A DNA stretch of 63,818 nt, the filler included, from Reclinomonas americana ATCC 50394 (lineage: Eukaryota), in the NCBI GenBank assembly GCA_048213135.1. It is 13 parts of 13 records of this genome, joined end to end, with 100 filler letters (N's around TTAATTAATTAA, not from the genome) between each part and the next. Parts side by side here need not be neighbours in the genome. Positions count along the whole stretch, not along the records: positions 6,381 to 8,539 come from AFZH01020307.1; 12 more parts are not named here. One strand, written 5' to 3'. The notes under the pieces were generated by a model that ran no database searches, was not told the origin of the DNA, and saw nothing but the letters and a program-made list of their open reading frames with translations. Positions 4,022 to 12,025 of the stretch are shown here, piece after piece; the first letter of the stretch is position 1, and each line of letters begins with the position of its first letter. Position numbers and translations under genes: made by a program.

Positions 4022-6044
4022 CGTAAGAAACGAGAACGAAACGCGCGTACGGTCGTCGTCGTACGACGACGTAGGTACGGAACGGCCCGTCCGTCCGCCG
4101 TCGTCGTCCTTACCNNNNNNNNNNNNNNNNNNNNNNNNNNNNNNNNNNNNNNNNNNNNTTAATTAATTAANNNNNNNNNNNNNNNNNNNNNNNNNNNNNN
4201 NNNNNNNNNNNNNNGAAGAGAGGGGAAGGTGAAGGGGAGGTGAAAGGGGAACTGCTGTACCGTACATCCGCCTTGGCCGTACAGCAGGAGAGAGAGAGAA
4301 TGAAAGACCTGGAAAAACTGGCAAAAGCGCACGGTGCTGTCGAGCAGTGAAGCCGCCTCGCGCTGCTCCATTCGTCCTTCGGTAAGTTGCTCCAGCAGGC
4401 CGCCCAGGGTGTCGTCCAGTCGGATAGCAAAGGTCTCTGATGCAGGGGCGCGGAGTGAGCAAATAGGGAGAGGAGAAGGGAGAAGGAGGAAGGAGAAGGG
4501 GGAAGGAAAGGGGGAAGGAAAGGGGGAAGGAAAGGGGGAAGGAAGGGGGGAAGGAACAGAAGGAAGAGAAGGGGGAAAGAACAGGGGCAAGGAACGGGGG
4601 GAGGAAACAGGGGGATTGAATAGGGGGAAGGAACAGGGGAAGTAACAGGGGAAGTAACAGGGGGGAAGAGAAAGGGGAGAGGAAGGAGGAAGATGAAGGG
4701 GGAGAGGAAAAGGGAAGTGAAGGGGAGAGAGAAGCGGCCGAGGAAAAAAGGGAAAGGGAAAGGGGGGAAGGAAAAGGGGGGAAAGGGAGGTGAAGGGGGA
4801 GGGAAGGGAAGGAGGAAAGGCAGAAGGAGGTGAAGAAAATGAGGGAGGAGAAGGGGGAAGGAACAGGGGACAGGGGAGTCGTTTCTCGTTCCCCAACTCT
4901 CTCCTCTCTCTTCTCCCTCTTCCCTGACCTGGACTCGTCAGCGACAGCAAGTGCATCTGCATCCGGTTGCTCAGGTGCTCCGCCATGCTGTTTGGTACCT
5001 CGGTGTGCGCCAGGTTCTCGACCAGGGCGCGCACATCGGAGACCTCCAGAATCGAGGTGTAGTGCGAGGCTTGCCCCTGTGCGCCACACAGATGAGTTCC
5101 ATACGAAAGAGGAACATCTGTGCCTCTCGAAGTGGACGCACTCGGCTCGACTGAAACTGCACTTGCGGGAGGAGTGCGGCTGGGGACGGCGCAAGCACAC
5201 GTCGTCGCTTGTTCGGCGAGGCGCCGGGCACCGCCGCGGATGGAGTGGACGTCGTCGTAGTGGTAACCGCCGTGCTGGGTGGTTGTGGTCTGTTGACACG
5301 GAGGGCAAGTCGGCGTGACCAGGCGGCGTCAAAGTTCTGGTGCCGAGAAGTGAGTAAAGTAGAGGAAAGCACAGGAAGAGGGAGTGTGACAGAGGAGCGA
5401 AACTGCCAGCTGCGCGTCGGTCGCCGGCTTGGTGAGGGGCATGGTCACCGAGGGATCAAAAGTGCGGAATGTGGCCAGCAGTCGGGCAGCCACGGCGTCA
5501 CGGGTGCTGCAGCAAATGTCTTGCCTGAGGGGTGGATGTGAGGGGCGAGAAAAAGAAGGATTATGCAGCGCGAAGCACACACACGCAACAAGTGTTGCAC
5601 GCGCTGTCGCGTGACCGACGCACGTGTGGTGATGGGCAGCAGCACGCGGCACACAAACGGACTGCGCGTCTGCGTGTGAGACATCAACCGGGCAAGCTCA
5701 ACAACAATAGAGTTGCTCACCGCAGCGCCTCCGCATCCACCAGTTGGAACAGGAGGCCGTACATGCCGCGCAGTGCCGCGCGCGTCTCCTCCGACATGAC
5801 GGGGGATACGGCACACAGCCATTTGAGGGCGATTACTTGTGCACGGTGGCCCTTGCCGCGGGAAGCGTGGCTGGGGGAGATATGAGGGAAGGAGAGGGGG
5901 AGGGAGGGAGGGAGAAGGGCGACGCAACGCCAGCGATGAAAGGCGACCGGCCACCAGCAGCACGGATTCACGTTGTACGGCATCGGCGGGCACCGTGGCG
6001 CGCAGAATGTCTTCGAATTTGGTGAGCAGGTCTTTTTGTTGGTG
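1701..6044 (-). CDS. CENPI: Centromere protein I (CENP-I/Mis6), multi-exon, 5' end lost in gap
   Basis: Exon peptides match CENP-I blocks in order: LKWLCAV...MYGLLFQLVDAEALR-SPFVCRVLLPITTR..VQHLL; LVENLAHTEVPNSMAEHLSN; QELLPSVERFLFRFLSQSWSG...VLDPLRSVFF...VLHTLRSLVRRWL; C-terminal HLRQNGLDGLARFL. Confidence 0.8.
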
Positions 6045-6609
6045 CTGCGGCGAAGGGGGAGGGAAGGGGGAAGGGAATGGGGGAGGGGATGGGGTGAAGA
6101 GAAGGGGGATGAGAAGGGGTAGGAGAAGGGGAAGGAGAAGGAGGAAGACCGAAGGGGGAAGAGAAGGGGGAGAGAAGATGAGGGAGAGTATGAGGGAGAG
6201 TATGGAGGAAGAGTTAGGGGGAAGAGAAGGGGGAAGAGAAGGGGGAAGAGATGGGGAAGAGAAGGGGGAAGGTGAAGGGGNNNNNNNNNNNNNNNNNNNN
6301 NNNNNNNNNNNNNNNNNNNNNNNNTTAATTAATTAANNNNNNNNNNNNNNNNNNNNNNNNNNNNNNNNNNNNNNNNNNNNTCTCTCTCTCACTCGTTGTC
6401 ACCACCTCGACAACAACCCAATCAGCGTTTTTTCCTTTCTCTCTTTCCTCACCGTGTAGTTCCTCTCTCTCATGTGCGCGCGTCTCTCTCCATGTGTGTG
6501 TTCCTCTCTTCGATTCGGTCAAAATGTGTGTGATGCCATGAGAAGAAAAAGAAAAAAAGAACAAAAAAGACAAACGCGTTTTGTTTTTTTCAATGCCCGC
6601 TCTCTTCCC

Positions 6610-8498
6610 ACCCGAGGTAGATAGCCTCCTTGACAGCAATGTGCGCAATCGGCCGGTACAGCTGGCGATGTAGTTGCATGGTGTACTGCGACACGAGACG
6701 AGTGAGTTTCACCCAAGGCAAACGGCGATACAAACAAGGGGTTTACCTCGGGAATGGCGGGAGCATCACGCAATGCGGGAACGACCTTGTTGCGCAGGTA
6801 GGCAAAGGCCTGCAGTGGGCGACGCCGACTCCTCTGCTTATCGTCGTCACCGTCGGTGTCGCTGTCAAGTCGCACGGCCACTGCCTGGCGCGTGTAGTGG
6901 CCCTTGAATATGCCTTCGTATTCGTCGAGACCGGCCAGGGTCTCGTCGCTGACACGCCACACCTCGCCGCGCACGGGGTGGCAGGCGCTGCCGTCGCCGG
7001 CACCGTGGTCGCCCGGACGCAGGAGGTACGGCACGCCCGAGTCGCCAACGACCAGTGGCATGGGCACGAGTGTGGTGGCCGGACCGAGTCGGCGTGCGCC
7101 GCGGCTGAGGAATTTGGCGTTCCAGTGGAAGCCGCTCTTCAGTGTGCCGTACACGAACAGCAGGTGCGGATGCTCCGCGTCGTCTTCAACAACAGCGGCG
7201 GCTGCAGGTGCTGTTCTCGGCGGAGCGCACCACTGCCGCTTGCACCACCAGCCGACGCAGGCAATGGCGGCCAGTGTGCTGAGAAAATTGAGGGCCATCG
7301 AGAGCGGCCACTCCTTGAGGTAGAACACCACGACGACGTCGACGACAAAGAGCAGCACCGCGGCCGTCAGTGCCACAGTGACGCGACTCAGGGACGACCA
7401 CCAGCGGAGAGCGGCTTCGCCGAGGGGCACGGGTGGTGGGGGTGGTGGTCGCACGGCGGCCGGGTACCACTGCGCGTAGTGCGGCACGTCACCCTGCCAG
7501 CGCATCTCCCAGTTGACCTCCACCAGGTCGCCGAGGTGCGGGTGAAGCTTGTCGTTGAGGCGGAACTCGAACGGACCTGCGACGGCACAAGCAGGCCAAG
7601 CGTGAGTGGGTGATGGAGAAGGGTGGCATGACTACAGGGAGGCGCACCATTTTCCAGCTGTTTCCGGTCGTGCTCCCACCGGAAGAGCGCCGTGCCGGTG
7701 CAGGTGAGGAACGGACTGATCTCAATCAGCCGCGCCTTGCCACTGCGCGATGCGGGTGAGGAGATTGAGAGTCGTCCGCGCTGTGCTACTGCAAAAAAAA
7801 AACATACCTCGCTGGCAAGTAGGCAAAGTCGACAATGTAGGAGTCGACGCCCACGTGCGGGTGCACCAGACGCCACTCCTCCATGATGCACTCCTGTATC
7901 CGCTCCTTTAGTGGCACCAGGTGCGGGTACACGGCGTAGTGGTCGTACTGCAGAGAGAGCGAGTGGGAGTCGATCAGCCGCAAAGACAGGGCATGAGACA
8001 CACGTTGCTCATACCCACCTGCGACATGGCGGTGACCTGCCCTCGCGACACAAACACGCGGAACTCGTAATCCAGCGTCATGTCCTCCTCCCAACACCGA
8101 AACACCAGCTGCTCCGGCTCGCCATACTCTAGCCAGTCGCGCAAATCCGTAAACACTCGCTCGCTGGTCAACAGCAACGCCATGGCCGCGGCACCGGAGC
8201 TCACTCGCAAGTAGCGCACTTGCGACACGGCCTGCAGCTTGACATTGGCCGGCAATGCCCTGTACTCTGCCCTGTCCATGTCACAGCTGTCGTCGTCACC
8301 TCCCTCGACCACTTCCGGCAGCGACAGCCCTTGCGCGGCGCACACTTGTCGCAGAGCGCGCACGTACTGCCGTCGCACATCATCGCGATCCAGCGGATCC
8401 GCGTCCTTCGGCGATCGCCCGCACAGTCGCATGAATGCTCCACTGGCCAGCCGCTCATCGCCTCGCAGCAGCACGTCGATCGTTGACTCCAAGTTCTG
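6610..8498 (-). CDS. CDC123-like (R2K) ATP-grasp domain + two TM helices + gamma-glutamylcyclotransferase (GGACT/AIG2-like) domain; multi-exon, 5' end in gap, 3' end approximate
   Basis: ATP-grasp motifs FMRLCGRSPKD, LLLTSERV, EFRVFV..GQVTAMSQY, SYIVDF, LIEISPF..TGTALFRW; GGCT motifs LFVYGTLK, VRGEVWRV, LDEYEG; the halves join in frame via a phase-1 GT-AG intron at 7577-7647. Confidence 0.8.
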
Positions 8499-8639
8499 CA
8501 ACGCGACAAGGTCATTTGACGTGACTTGACTGATTCAAANNNNNNNNNNNNNNNNNNNNNNNNNNNNNNNNNNNNNNNNNNNNTTAATTAATTAANNNNN
8601 NNNNNNNNNNNNNNNNNNNNNNNNNNNNNNNNNNNNNNN

Positions 8640-12025
<3,386 letters not shown>

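What the first reader, a model, noticed from the sequence alone, without database searches (positions are those of the whole stretch)
6610..8498. ATP-grasp ligase fused through a TM hairpin to a gamma-glutamylcyclotransferase: possible writer/eraser in one chain
Seen: a CDC123-like domain is spliced in frame (AAT G|gt...ag|GT CCG, intron 7577-7647) to an exon encoding two hydrophobic helices and a GGACT-like domain with VYGTLK and the LDEYE Glu motif. Known: CDC123/R2K proteins are ATP-grasp enzymes with a predicted peptide-ligation role; GGACT cleaves gamma-glutamyl-amine bonds, releasing 5-oxoproline. Inference: a membrane-anchored bifunctional enzyme with both domains on the same side, adding and removing a gamma-glutamyl modification. 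I do not recall this architecture being described.
Basis: partly seen in the sequence, partly recalled or inferred. Interest (0 to 1): 0.7.

Follow-up and report, generated by a model that had tools for sequence, protein, structure and literature searches.

The report
CDC123-like ligase fused to gamma-glutamyl cyclotransferase
A protist gene joins a CDC123-type ATP-using domain to an enzyme domain that cuts gamma-glutamyl-amine bonds, through a membrane-like hairpin; the same build occurs in many other protists but no paper describing it was found, and it hints at what chemistry CDC123-type enzymes perform.

Summary
On the minus strand of a 2,159-base contig (window 6381-8539) lies a five-exon gene, cut at its 5' end by the contig end. 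It encodes a 558-residue partial protein. The order is a D123/CDC123-like ATP-grasp half, a 113-residue linker with two hydrophobic helices, a GGACT-type cyclotransferase domain and a conserved C-terminal tail.

Exon D alone carries the end of the D123 half, the hairpin and the GGACT domain in one open frame, so the fusion does not rest on splicing.

The build is not unique. 105 of 120 listed database relatives carry both Pfam domains. Some are transcript-derived, and they come from amoebozoans, a malawimonad, a heterolobosean, stramenopiles and a choanoflagellate. Sources name them only 'gamma-glutamylcyclotransferase' or 'hypothetical'. Four full-text searches and the founding R2K paper gave no description of the architecture.

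The GGACT catalytic Glu and the YGTL motif are kept. The ATP-grasp residues are invariant within the family but shifted: probably Lys to Arg, and DxN to ExS. The hairpin is present in 19 of 50 relatives tested.

A ligate-then-cyclise function is inferred, not shown. No RNA data were available. This scan had not noted the family before.

The parts
6381..8539 (.). The short contig that holds the whole finding. It is bounded by N runs and TTAATTAATTAA linkers.
   Evidence: N runs at 6337-6380 and 8540-8583. There are 12 such linkers in the window.
8019..8534 (-). Exon A (5' end cut by the contig end). It encodes the N part of the D123-like ATP-grasp half, with FMRLCGRSPKD (8403-8435) and YEFRVFV (8049-8069).
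   Evidence: Translation. tblastn to P0004 residues 63-217. Pfam D123 18.3 bits, below the cut-off. Motif coordinates.
7948..8018 (-). Intron 1, 71 nt, GTGGGT...CAG.
   Evidence: The SQ|YDHY junction matches the family motif SQYDHY.
7808..7947 (-). Exon B. It encodes the D123-like core with YIVDFAY (7819-7839), whose Asp aligns with human CDC123 D233.
   Evidence: The profile alignment to 8phd is; residue numbering is from PMC4431377.
7743..7807 (-). Intron 2, 65 nt, GTATGT...CAG.
   Evidence: Relatives read straight through the junction.
7648..7742 (-). Exon C. It carries LIEISPF (7709-7729), an E-x-S in the place of CDC123's D246-x-N248, and CTGTALFRW.
7577..7647 (-).
   Evidence: The LENG|PFEFRL junction matches P0004 and others.
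7497..7576 (-). Start of exon D. It encodes the tail of the D123-like half (PFEFRLN...NWEMRW).
   Evidence: W22 and W26 of exon D are invariant in 39 sequences.
7164..7496 (-). Variable linker within exon D. It has a Pro run and two hydrophobic helices (7317-7382 and 7245-7304) separated by KEWP, with basic flanks.
   Evidence: Kyte-Doolittle peaks 2.76 and 1.64. AlphaFold2 helices 51-85 and 91-116, pLDDT 74-87. GC3 is 0.75, like the coding flanks.
6747..7163 (-). GGACT-type gamma-glutamylamine cyclotransferase domain, at the end of exon D. It has LLFVYGTLK (7137-7163), GVPYLL (7020-7037) and LDEYEG (6912-6929, catalytic Glu).
   Evidence: Pfam PF06094 at 4e-15. Foldseek to 1vkb/3juc at E 2e-9, TM 0.72-0.75. 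The Glu aligns with E82.
6686..6746 (-). Intron 4, 61 nt, GTAAAC...CAG.
   Evidence: Only the spliced reading gives the family's C-terminal tail.
6590..6685 (-). Exon E. It encodes the conserved C-terminal tail YTMQLHRQLYRPIAHIAVKEAIYLG; the stop TGA is at 6592-6590.
   Evidence: The tail motif EYTxxxHxxxYxxIxHIxVKQxxY is nearly invariant in relatives. Coordinates.

Best explanation
What it is (odds about 0.93): a real, 5'-truncated gene for a member of a conserved, unstudied protist family of two-domain proteins. The N-terminal half is a CDC123/D123-type (R2K.1) ATP-grasp module. The C-terminal half is a GGACT-type gamma-glutamylamine cyclotransferase with a family-specific helical tail. The linker between them is variable, and in this organism it is a two-helix hydrophobic hairpin. 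That hairpin would tether both domains to the cytosolic face of a membrane.

How it most likely works (inferred, odds about 0.4): the ATP-grasp half uses ATP to activate the gamma-carboxyl of glutamate and joins it to an amine, either a protein lysine or a small amine such as a polyamine. The GGACT half later removes that gamma-glutamyl group by cyclising it to 5-oxoproline and freeing the amine. The gamma-glutamyl group would then act as a transient mark or a protecting group. The two halves would be regulated reciprocally, as in other enzymes that carry opposing activities in one chain.

Shown: the gene structure, the domain identities, the conservation of the fusion and the retention of key residues. 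Inferred: the ligase activity, the substrate, the coupling of the two halves and membrane insertion. The confidence given (0.45) is for identity and mechanism taken together.
For: Gene model:
- Four GT-AG introns of 61-71 nt and an open 558-codon reading frame.
- Exon D (P0001) holds the D123 tail, the linker and the GGACT domain in one frame.

Conserved fusion:
- 23 of 23 longer relatives carry PF07065 and PF06094.
- 34 of 43 long 50%-identity representatives carry both.
- 105 of 120 listed relatives carry both, which found 150 hits in all.
- Several relatives are transcript ORFs: Trinity, MMETSP and Physarum.

Fold and profile matches:
- The AlphaFold2 model of P0004 has pLDDT 80 and pTM 0.75. 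It matches Cdc123 (8phd, 4zgp; E about 2e-9, TM 0.58-0.68) and GGACT (3jud, TM 0.79).
- The window's own exon D model has pLDDT 83. It matches GGACT 1vkb/3juc at E 2e-9, TM 0.72-0.75.
- The family profile hits the PDB at 1vkb 1e-17, 8phd 2.5e-16 and 4zgn 1.4e-9.

Residues:
- YGTL and the Glu aligned to GGACT E82 are invariant in 23 and in 39 sequences.
- The ExR motif, the Asp equivalent to D233 and the acidic residue equivalent to D246 are invariant (with numbering).

Context from the literature:
- R2K enzymes nest among amide-forming ATP-grasp ligases (PMC4431377, sections 5-7).
- An ATP-grasp gene sits next to an AIG2/GGCT gene in LUZ24-like phages (PMC3890496, table).

Hairpin:
-, with basic flanks read from the sequence.
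Against: - No activity of any kind has been measured for this family.
- Canonical CDC123 is so far an ATPase and eIF2 assembly chaperone, with no ligase product known.
- The lysine that PMC4431377 calls absolutely conserved in strand 2 appears to be Arg in all 23 aligned relatives. This rests on motif spacing only.
- The Mg-binding Asn of DxN is Ser.
- Opposing activities in one chain would burn ATP unless they are regulated.
- On the window's exon A alone, Pfam D123 is below its cut-off, and phmmer against the PDB found nothing.
- The hairpin is absent from 31 of 50 relatives, so membrane tethering is not needed for the chemistry.
- No dedicated transmembrane predictor was run.
- The N-terminus of the gene is missing.
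Confidence: 0.45

Rival explanations
1. The D123-like half is not a ligase. Like canonical CDC123, it would be an ATP-driven binding or assembly module (ATPase). The GGACT half would be an ordinary catabolic gamma-glutamylamine cyclotransferase that the fusion merely recruits or localises, here to a membrane.
For: - CDC123 is documented as an ATP-binding/ATPase chaperone for eIF2 assembly, with no ligation product (PMC12860950, passages).
- The ATP-grasp residues are shifted away from the canonical set, to Arg for Lys and ExS for DxN.
- Stand-alone GGACT enzymes work without a partner (PDB 3juc with 5-oxoproline, title).
Against: - The fusion is kept across very distant lineages, which argues for a functional link between the halves.
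- All putative catalytic positions of the ATP-grasp half are invariant.
- R2K enzymes nest among amide ligases.
Confidence: 0.25
2. The two halves act in sequence on one metabolite and do not oppose each other. One version is net ATP-driven conversion of glutamate to 5-oxoproline through a gamma-glutamyl intermediate. Another is that the cyclotransferase-fold domain processes a different labile intermediate, as the same fold does at the C-terminus of allophanate hydrolase.
For: - The GGACT-fold models also hit the allophanate hydrolase and urea amidolyase C-domains (4iss, 5i8i).
- Pfam AH_C gives weak hits (E 1e-5 on P0017, below its cut-off).
- Urea amidolyase already combines an ATP-grasp carboxylase and this fold in one chain. 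Its domain composition is recalled; only the structure title was seen.
Against: - The best sequence and fold matches are to true GGACT (about 30% identity, TM 0.72-0.79), not to the hydrolase C-domains (TM 0.06-0.16 normalised on the target).
- The GGACT catalytic Glu and YGTL are invariant.
Confidence: 0.2
3. Artefact: two neighbouring genes were merged, or the assembly is chimeric, or the hydrophobic linker is an in-frame retained intron.
For: - The contig is only 2.2 kb and no RNA data are available.
- 30 in-frame GT..AG pairs of 45-120 nt exist inside the linker.
Against: - One uninterrupted exon spans the D123 tail, the linker and the GGACT domain.
- Transcript-derived relatives have the same order, and some have similar hydrophobic linkers (P0004, P0017).
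- The linker GC3 of 0.75 equals that of the coding flanks, whereas the introns have GC 0.52-0.63.
- The linker helices are modelled with pLDDT 74-87.
Confidence: 0.03

Closest known systems
Canonical CDC123 / D123 (R2K.1 ATP-grasp; PDB 8phd, 4zgn-4zgq)
   Same: - Same fold: Foldseek E about 2e-9, TM 0.58-0.68 on the target.
- Profile match at 2.5e-16.
- The ExR motif, the Asp equivalent to D233 and the acidic residue equivalent to D246 are present.
- A weakly similar N-terminal 'WYP...PL' region is present.
   Different: - It is fused to a GGACT domain.
- Pfam D123 matches only profile positions of about 100-280.
- Arg sits where the strand-2 Lys is expected, and Ser replaces the Asn of DxN.
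- There is no evidence of eIF2-gamma binding.
- It is absent from the usual model organisms.
GGACT / A2LD1, gamma-glutamylamine cyclotransferase (PDB 3jub, 3juc, 3jud, 1vkb)
   Same: - Pfam PF06094 is above its cut-off.
- About 30% identity, TM 0.72-0.75, rmsd 3.4-3.6 A over about 144 columns.
- YGTL and the Glu aligned with E82 are present.
   Different: - Here it is a C-terminal domain of a roughly 600-residue protein.
- It carries an extra conserved tail (EYTxxxHxxxYxxIxHIxVKQxxY).
- Its substrate is unknown.
Unnamed D123-GGACT proteins in databases, e.g. PROFUN_07061 of Planoprotostelium fungivorum (P0003) and the Gefionella okellyi transcript (P0004). Others come from Acrasis kona, Seminavis robusta, Balamuthia mandrillaris, Heterosigma akashiwo and Physarum.
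   Same: - Same domain order and same motifs.
- 38-58% identity to exon D.
- Colinear with the exons.
   Different: - The window's protein is no closer than about 46% identity to any of them over the long alignments.
- The linker differs in length and hydrophobicity.
Butirosin BtrJ (ATP-grasp) and BtrG (gamma-glutamyl cyclotransferase) protect-and-deprotect pair. The mechanism is recalled; only a review passage listing the genes was seen (PMC13707489).
   Same: An ATP-grasp ligase adds a gamma-glutamyl group to an amine, and a cyclotransferase-fold enzyme later removes it as 5-oxoproline. This is the logic proposed here.
   Different: - It is bacterial, with separate proteins and a non-R2K ATP-grasp, and it acts on a carrier-bound small molecule.
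- Homology to BtrJ or BtrG was not tested here.
Urea amidolyase / allophanate hydrolase (PDB 5i8i, 4iss)
   Same: The cyclotransferase-like fold is found at the allophanate hydrolase C-terminus (hits). In urea amidolyase it shares a chain with an ATP-grasp carboxylase (recalled).
   Different: - It has a biotin-carboxylase type ATP-grasp and different chemistry.
- Similarity is weak, and Pfam AH_C is below its cut-off.
LUZ24-like phage gene pair: an ATP-grasp enzyme next to an AIG2/GGCT-like protein (PMC3890496, table rows)
   Same: An ATP-grasp gene sits directly beside a PF06094 gene.
   Different: - They are separate genes in a phage operon that also has amidoligase and amidotransferase genes.
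- The relationship of that ATP-grasp to the R2K clade was not tested.

Membership tests
CDC123 / D123 (R2K.1 ATP-grasp, Pfam PF07065) | Pfam D123 score above the gathering cut-off (24 bits) | tested here: inconclusive
   The window's exon A alone scores 18.3 bits (E 0.0014), below the cut-off, and exons B and C give no hit on their own. The spliced protein could not be scanned. Colinear relatives at 40-46% identity score 40-90 bits.
CDC123 / D123 (R2K.1 ATP-grasp, Pfam PF07065) | Cdc123 fold (RAGNYA plus kinase-like ATP-grasp module) | tested here: met
   Tested on relative P0004, not on the window's own N half. Foldseek to 8phd_C gave 1.7e-9 and to 4zgp_A 2.6e-9, TM 0.58-0.68.
CDC123 / D123 (R2K.1 ATP-grasp, Pfam PF07065) | Absolutely conserved Lys at the end of RAGNYA strand 2 (human K104), plus a second Lys/Arg in the following loop | tested here: inconclusive
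   The family motif R-L-C-G-R-S-P-K-D is invariant in 23 relatives and present in the window (8403-8435). The Arg ends a modelled strand (E91-94) and a Lys follows 7 residues later. This is the same spacing as K104 to R111 named. No residue-level alignment to CDC123 was obtained. If the mapping is right, the first Lys is Arg.
CDC123 / D123 (R2K.1 ATP-grasp, Pfam PF07065) | [quoted passage not shown] | tested here: met
   E-F-R is invariant and aligned to the E-F-R of 8phd. In the window it is YEFRVFV at 8049-8069.
CDC123 / D123 (R2K.1 ATP-grasp, Pfam PF07065) | Catalytic Asp (human D233) | tested here: met
   The profile alignment to 8phd (chain numbering offset 20) puts the family's invariant Asp (P0004 D247) on D233. 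In the window it is YIVDFAY.
CDC123 / D123 (R2K.1 ATP-grasp, Pfam PF07065) | DxN/ExN metal-binding motif (human D246-x-N248) | tested here: not met
   The aligned positions read E-x-S and are invariant in 23 relatives. In the window this is LIEISPF. The acidic residue is kept and the Asn is replaced by Ser. PMC4431377 notes that polar replacements of the Asn occur.
CDC123 / D123 (R2K.1 ATP-grasp, Pfam PF07065) | Binds eIF2-gamma domain III and promotes eIF2 assembly | not testable with these tools
   Not addressed.
GGACT (gamma-glutamylamine cyclotransferase, Pfam PF06094) | Pfam GGACT above the gathering cut-off (22.8 bits) | tested here: met
   56.8 bits, E 4.1e-15, over residues 139-263 of exon D.
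GGACT (gamma-glutamylamine cyclotransferase, Pfam PF06094) | Gamma-glutamyl cyclotransferase fold | tested here: met
   The window's own exon D model has domain pLDDT 87-97. Against 1vkb, 3juc and 3jud it gave E 1.7-2.8e-9, TM 0.72-0.75.
GGACT (gamma-glutamylamine cyclotransferase, Pfam PF06094) | N-terminal YGTL(K) substrate-pocket motif | tested here: met
   Y142, G143, T144 and L145 of exon D are invariant in 39 sequences and aligned to the same motif of 1vkb/2kl2. That the motif forms the substrate pocket is recalled, not seen in any call.
GGACT (gamma-glutamylamine cyclotransferase, Pfam PF06094) | Catalytic Glu (human E82) | tested here: met
   E220 of exon D (in LDEYEG) is invariant in 39 sequences. 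In the alignment it falls on residue 82 of 2kl2, counted from the printed alignment. E82 is the residue mutated in 3jud (title).
GGACT (gamma-glutamylamine cyclotransferase, Pfam PF06094) | Releases 5-oxoproline from gamma-glutamyl-epsilon-lysine or other gamma-glutamylamines | not testable with these tools
   Needs an enzyme assay.
Unnamed D123-GGACT fusion family of protists | D123-like half, then linker, then GGACT half, then the tail EYTxxxHxxxYxxIxHIxVKQxxY, all in one chain | tested here: met
   Spliced model aligned with 23 relatives. The tail is encoded by exon E.
Unnamed D123-GGACT fusion family of protists | Conserved N-terminal SEHRLRSENLxFDIDVWYP region | not testable with these tools
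   The contig ends before it. No other piece of the window encodes it (tblastn), and no genome is held.
Membrane helical hairpin (two-span anchor) | Two hydrophobic helices of about 20 residues, a short loop and basic cytosolic flanks | tested here: inconclusive
   Kyte-Doolittle peaks of 2.76 and 1.64, the second only just above the 1.6 convention. Helices 51-85 and 91-116 in the model. Flanks ...LRWWSSLSR and KRQWCAPPR, loop KEWP. No dedicated transmembrane predictor was available.

The most novel reading that the evidence does not exclude
The fusion may be a Rosetta-stone clue to the chemistry of the whole CDC123/R2K.1 branch. On this reading these ATP-grasp enzymes are gamma-glutamyl-amine ligases. 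Many protists would then run an ATP-dependent gamma-glutamylation cycle on protein lysines or on polyamines, written by the D123-like half and erased as 5-oxoproline by the GGACT half of the same chain. In this organism the cycle would take place on the cytosolic face of a membrane.
Probability: 0.2. Interest if true: 0.85.

Novelty: new variant of a known kind. Interest (0 to 1): 0.58.

Why it matters
- The biochemical activity of CDC123-type ATP-grasp proteins is unsettled. They were predicted to be peptide-like ligases, but they are so far documented only as ATPases and assembly chaperones.
- This family is a conserved paralogue welded to an enzyme whose one known job is to break gamma-glutamyl-amine bonds. 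That gives a concrete, testable guess at the bond the ATP-grasp half makes.
- It also suggests a trapping experiment: an eraser-dead Glu-to-Gln mutant could be used to find the substrate.
- The family spans several eukaryotic supergroups yet is missing from standard model organisms. That probably explains why it is annotated only as 'gamma-glutamylcyclotransferase' or 'hypothetical'.

Tried and rejected
- RNA evidence: the look-up of sequencing runs listed no run for the contig ('none was listed'), so splicing could not be checked with reads and read laying was not used.
- Own genome: none is held, so the missing 5' exon, any paralogues and a canonical CDC123 in the same organism could not be sought.
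- Complex prediction on the two halves of P0004 gave 'no answer'. It is not used as evidence either way.
- phmmer of exon A against PDB sequences found 0 hits at E up to 10, so no residue-level alignment of the first basic motif to CDC123 was obtained.
- The search for related loci with the family profile found no confirmed relative in prokaryote genome contigs (43 pattern matches, 0 confirmed) or in viral contigs (33 matches, 0 confirmed). Only two D123-half motifs were scanned each time, so this is weak evidence of absence.
- The 'shorter' protein search returned 91 hits of 30-277 residues, mostly on contigs of 1-3 kb. I read them as fragments, not as split genes.
- Neither nor brought up canonical CDC123 proteins, so no joint tree with CDC123 was built.
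- Tree of 58 sequences: only the quick tree finished. The two-hairpin label needs 9 changes on it, and well-supported branches force at least 5. The hairpin is therefore scattered, and I drew no conclusion on gain versus loss.
- The antisense ORF 6621-7613 (+, 330 aa) has no Pfam match. I take it as a by-product of G+C-rich coding sequence.
- ESM Atlas: one cluster at score 0.91 (D123 on 99% of members, GGACT on 13%, eukaryotes). It was used as a lead only.
- Earlier scan notes: searches by sequence and by words found nothing on this family.
- Literature: 'CDC123 + gamma-glutamylcyclotransferase' (4 papers), 'D123 + GGACT' (18 papers) and 'AIG2 + CDC123' (0 papers) gave nothing relevant. PMC4431377 has no occurrence of AIG2, cyclotransferase or GGCT in its text or in the one supplementary file held as text (20,031 characters). 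Subscription journals are not covered.
Full report
**Setting.** The window is not one continuous stretch. It holds 12 TTAATTAATTAA linkers flanked by N runs, so it is a chain of short contigs. The finding lies wholly on one contig, window 6381-8539 (N runs at 6337-6380 and 8540-8583). Neighbouring genes therefore say nothing about synteny. No whole genome is held for the window. Earlier notes of this scan describe the genome as an unidentified intron-dense protist.

**Gene model.** The gene is on the minus strand. I read five exons:
- Exon A: 8534-8019
- Exon B: 7947-7808
- Exon C: 7742-7648
- Exon D: 7576-6747
- Exon E: 6685-6590, with the stop TGA at 6592-6590

They are separated by four GT-AG introns of 71, 65, 71 and 61 nt. 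Joined in a script, they give an open frame of 558 codons. tblastn of the closest relative P0004 runs colinearly through exons A-D (its residues 63-524), and no other piece of the window matches.

The junction reads LENG|PFEFRLNDKLHP, against LLENGPFEFRLNHKLHP in P0004.

The last intron is supported differently. Only the spliced reading yields the tail YTMQLHRQLYRPIAHIAVKEAIYLG, which matches the family's nearly invariant EYTxxxHxxxYxxIxHIxVKQxxY.

The 5' end is cut by the contig end. About 62 residues are missing, including the family's SEHRLRSENLxFDIDVWYP region. All four exons end in G before the donor, in line with the donor habits that earlier notes report for this genome.

**The fusion is real.** Exon D alone (P0001, 276 residues) carries three things in one frame: the end of the D123-like half (PFEFRL...NWEMRW), the linker, and the GGACT domain. 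The fusion therefore does not depend on any splice prediction.
- The linker has GC3 of 0.75, like the flanking coding parts (0.76-0.96). The introns have G+C of 0.52-0.63.
- The antisense ORF 6621-7613 has no Pfam match.

**Domain identities.**
- On the window's own pieces, GGACT (PF06094) scores 56.8 bits against a cut-off of 22.8. D123 (PF07065) on exon A scores only 18.3 bits against 24.
- Phmmer of exon A against PDB sequences found nothing.
- Full-length relatives pass both models: D123 40-90 bits and GGACT 33-82 bits.
- A profile of 23 relatives hits GGACT structures (1vkb 1e-17, 3jub 8e-15) and Cdc123 structures (8phd 2.5e-16, 4zgn 1.4e-9).
- An AlphaFold2 model of P0004 (pLDDT 80, pTM 0.75) matches Cdc123 with its N half (8phd, 4zgp; TM 0.58-0.68) and GGACT with its C half (3jud, TM 0.79).
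- The window's own exon D folds with pLDDT 83. Its domain matches mouse and human GGACT at E about 2e-9, TM 0.72-0.75 and 30% identity.

**Residues of the GGACT half.** YGTL and the Glu of LDEYEG are invariant in 23 and in 39 sequences. Counting along the printed alignment to 2kl2, that Glu is residue 82. E82 is the residue mutated in PDB entry 3jud (title).

**Residues of the ATP-grasp half.** PMC4431377 (sections 5-7 read) lists the expected residues in human CDC123: K104, an ExR motif, D233 and D246-x-N248.
- The 8phd chain is offset by 20 from native numbering. With that offset, the alignment puts the family's invariant E-F-R on ExR and the Asp of Y-x-x-D-F on D233.
- It puts E-x-S (LIEISPF in the window) on D246-x-N248. 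The acidic residue is kept and the Asn is Ser.
- The first basic motif could not be aligned by any tool. By position, the invariant R-L-C-G-R-S-P-K-D has its Arg at the end of a modelled strand and a Lys 7 residues later.
- That is the same spacing as K104 to R111, which PMC12860950 places at the ATP site (passages). If the mapping holds, the 'absolutely conserved' Lys is Arg here. I mark this as inference.

**A whole family.** The same build is common among protists.
- The 'longer' search gave 23 proteins, all 23 with both Pfam domains.
- The exhaustive search of 50%-identity representatives with exon D gave 827 hits at E up to 0.001 and 143 at up to 1e-10.
- Of its 150 listed hits I scanned 43: those of 417 residues or more that were not already. 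34 had both domains, 8 had GGACT only and 1 had D123 only.
- The 'near' profile search gave 150 hits, of which 120 were listed. 105 had both domains, 13 had D123 only (several are short or partial) and 2 had GGACT only.
- Named sources include Planoprotostelium, Protostelium, Physarum, Pelomyxa and Balamuthia (Amoebozoa), Gefionella (a malawimonad), Acrasis (Heterolobosea), Heterosigma and Seminavis (stramenopiles), an acanthoecid choanoflagellate and a partial rotifer entry.
- Several are transcript-derived ORFs, which shows that the two halves are expressed as one message in relatives.
- No relative was confirmed in prokaryote or viral contigs, but that scan used only two motifs per collection.

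**The linker.** In the window it is 113 residues long. It has a Pro run and two hydrophobic stretches (Kyte-Doolittle peaks 2.76 and 1.64) separated by KEWP. Its flanks are basic: LRWWSSLSR before and KRQWCAPPR after. The stretches are modelled as two long helices, 51-85 and 91-116.

That pattern fits a hairpin with both ends, and therefore both enzyme domains, on the cytosolic side.

Across 58 sequences the linker could be delimited in 50. Of these, 19 have at least one such segment, 12 have two or more, and 31 have none. On a quick tree the trait is scattered: 9 changes are needed, and well-supported branches force at least 5. Tethering is thus a lineage option and not part of the core mechanism.

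**Mechanism.** What is shown is a conserved fusion of an R2K.1 ATP-grasp module with a GGACT-type domain, each with invariant putative catalytic residues.
- R2K enzymes nest among amide-forming ATP-grasp ligases.
- GGACT-type enzymes release 5-oxoproline from gamma-glutamyl-amines (the 3juc complex, title; the enzymology itself is recalled).
- The simplest link is that the N half makes a gamma-glutamyl-amine bond with ATP and the C half resolves it.
- The same logic is known from the butirosin pair BtrJ/BtrG (recalled; only a gene list was seen). It is echoed by an ATP-grasp gene next to an AIG2 gene in LUZ24-like phages.
- I give this reading about 0.4.

The rivals are three. The N half may be an ATPase/chaperone like CDC123, at 0.25. 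The two halves may act in sequence without opposing each other, possibly with other chemistry by the cyclotransferase fold as in allophanate hydrolase (weak hits), at 0.2. The finding may be an artefact, at 0.03.

**Novelty.**
- It does not hold for databases, where the proteins are labelled from the GGACT half only.
- Relative to characterised systems I rate it a new variant of a known kind.

Noticed in passing
window 4159-62688 (12 sites, e.g. 6325-6336 and 8584-8595): The window is a chain of short contigs joined by N runs around TTAATTAATTAA, a linker with stops in all frames. Gene neighbourhood across these joints is therefore not evidence of linkage.
   Followed up: partly
window 8889-10353, minus strand (next contig): An intron-split MCM helicase gene. 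Two ORF pieces match the MCM P-loop domain (E 9e-50 and 6e-47) and the AAA-lid domain.
   Followed up: partly
window 6040-6280: A G+A-rich low-complexity run (GAAGGGGGA-like units) at the end of the preceding contig, next to the N linker.
   Followed up: no
P0330 (364 aa) and P0311 (500 aa): Transcript ORFs flagged 'complete' that match the family's D123-like half strongly but have no GGACT domain on record. They may be stand-alone or differently fused forms.
   Followed up: no
P0302 (Didymodactylos carnosus, partial); ESM Atlas cluster: The D123-like half also appears in bdelloid rotifer records, and an Atlas cluster of 216 members lists Rotifera as its commonest phylum. This could be animal retention or gene transfer.
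   Followed up: no
window 6611-6685 (exon E); P0004 residues about 579-601: A family-specific C-terminal tail (EYTxxxHxxxYxxIxHIxVKQxxY) with nearly invariant His, Tyr, Lys and Gln is modelled as two helices. Its role is unknown.
   Followed up: no
window introns 8018-7948, 7807-7743, 7647-7577, 6746-6686: All four introns are 61-71 nt, follow an exon-final G and end in CAG. One starts GTGCGC, the donor type that earlier notes call usual for this genome.
   Followed up: partly
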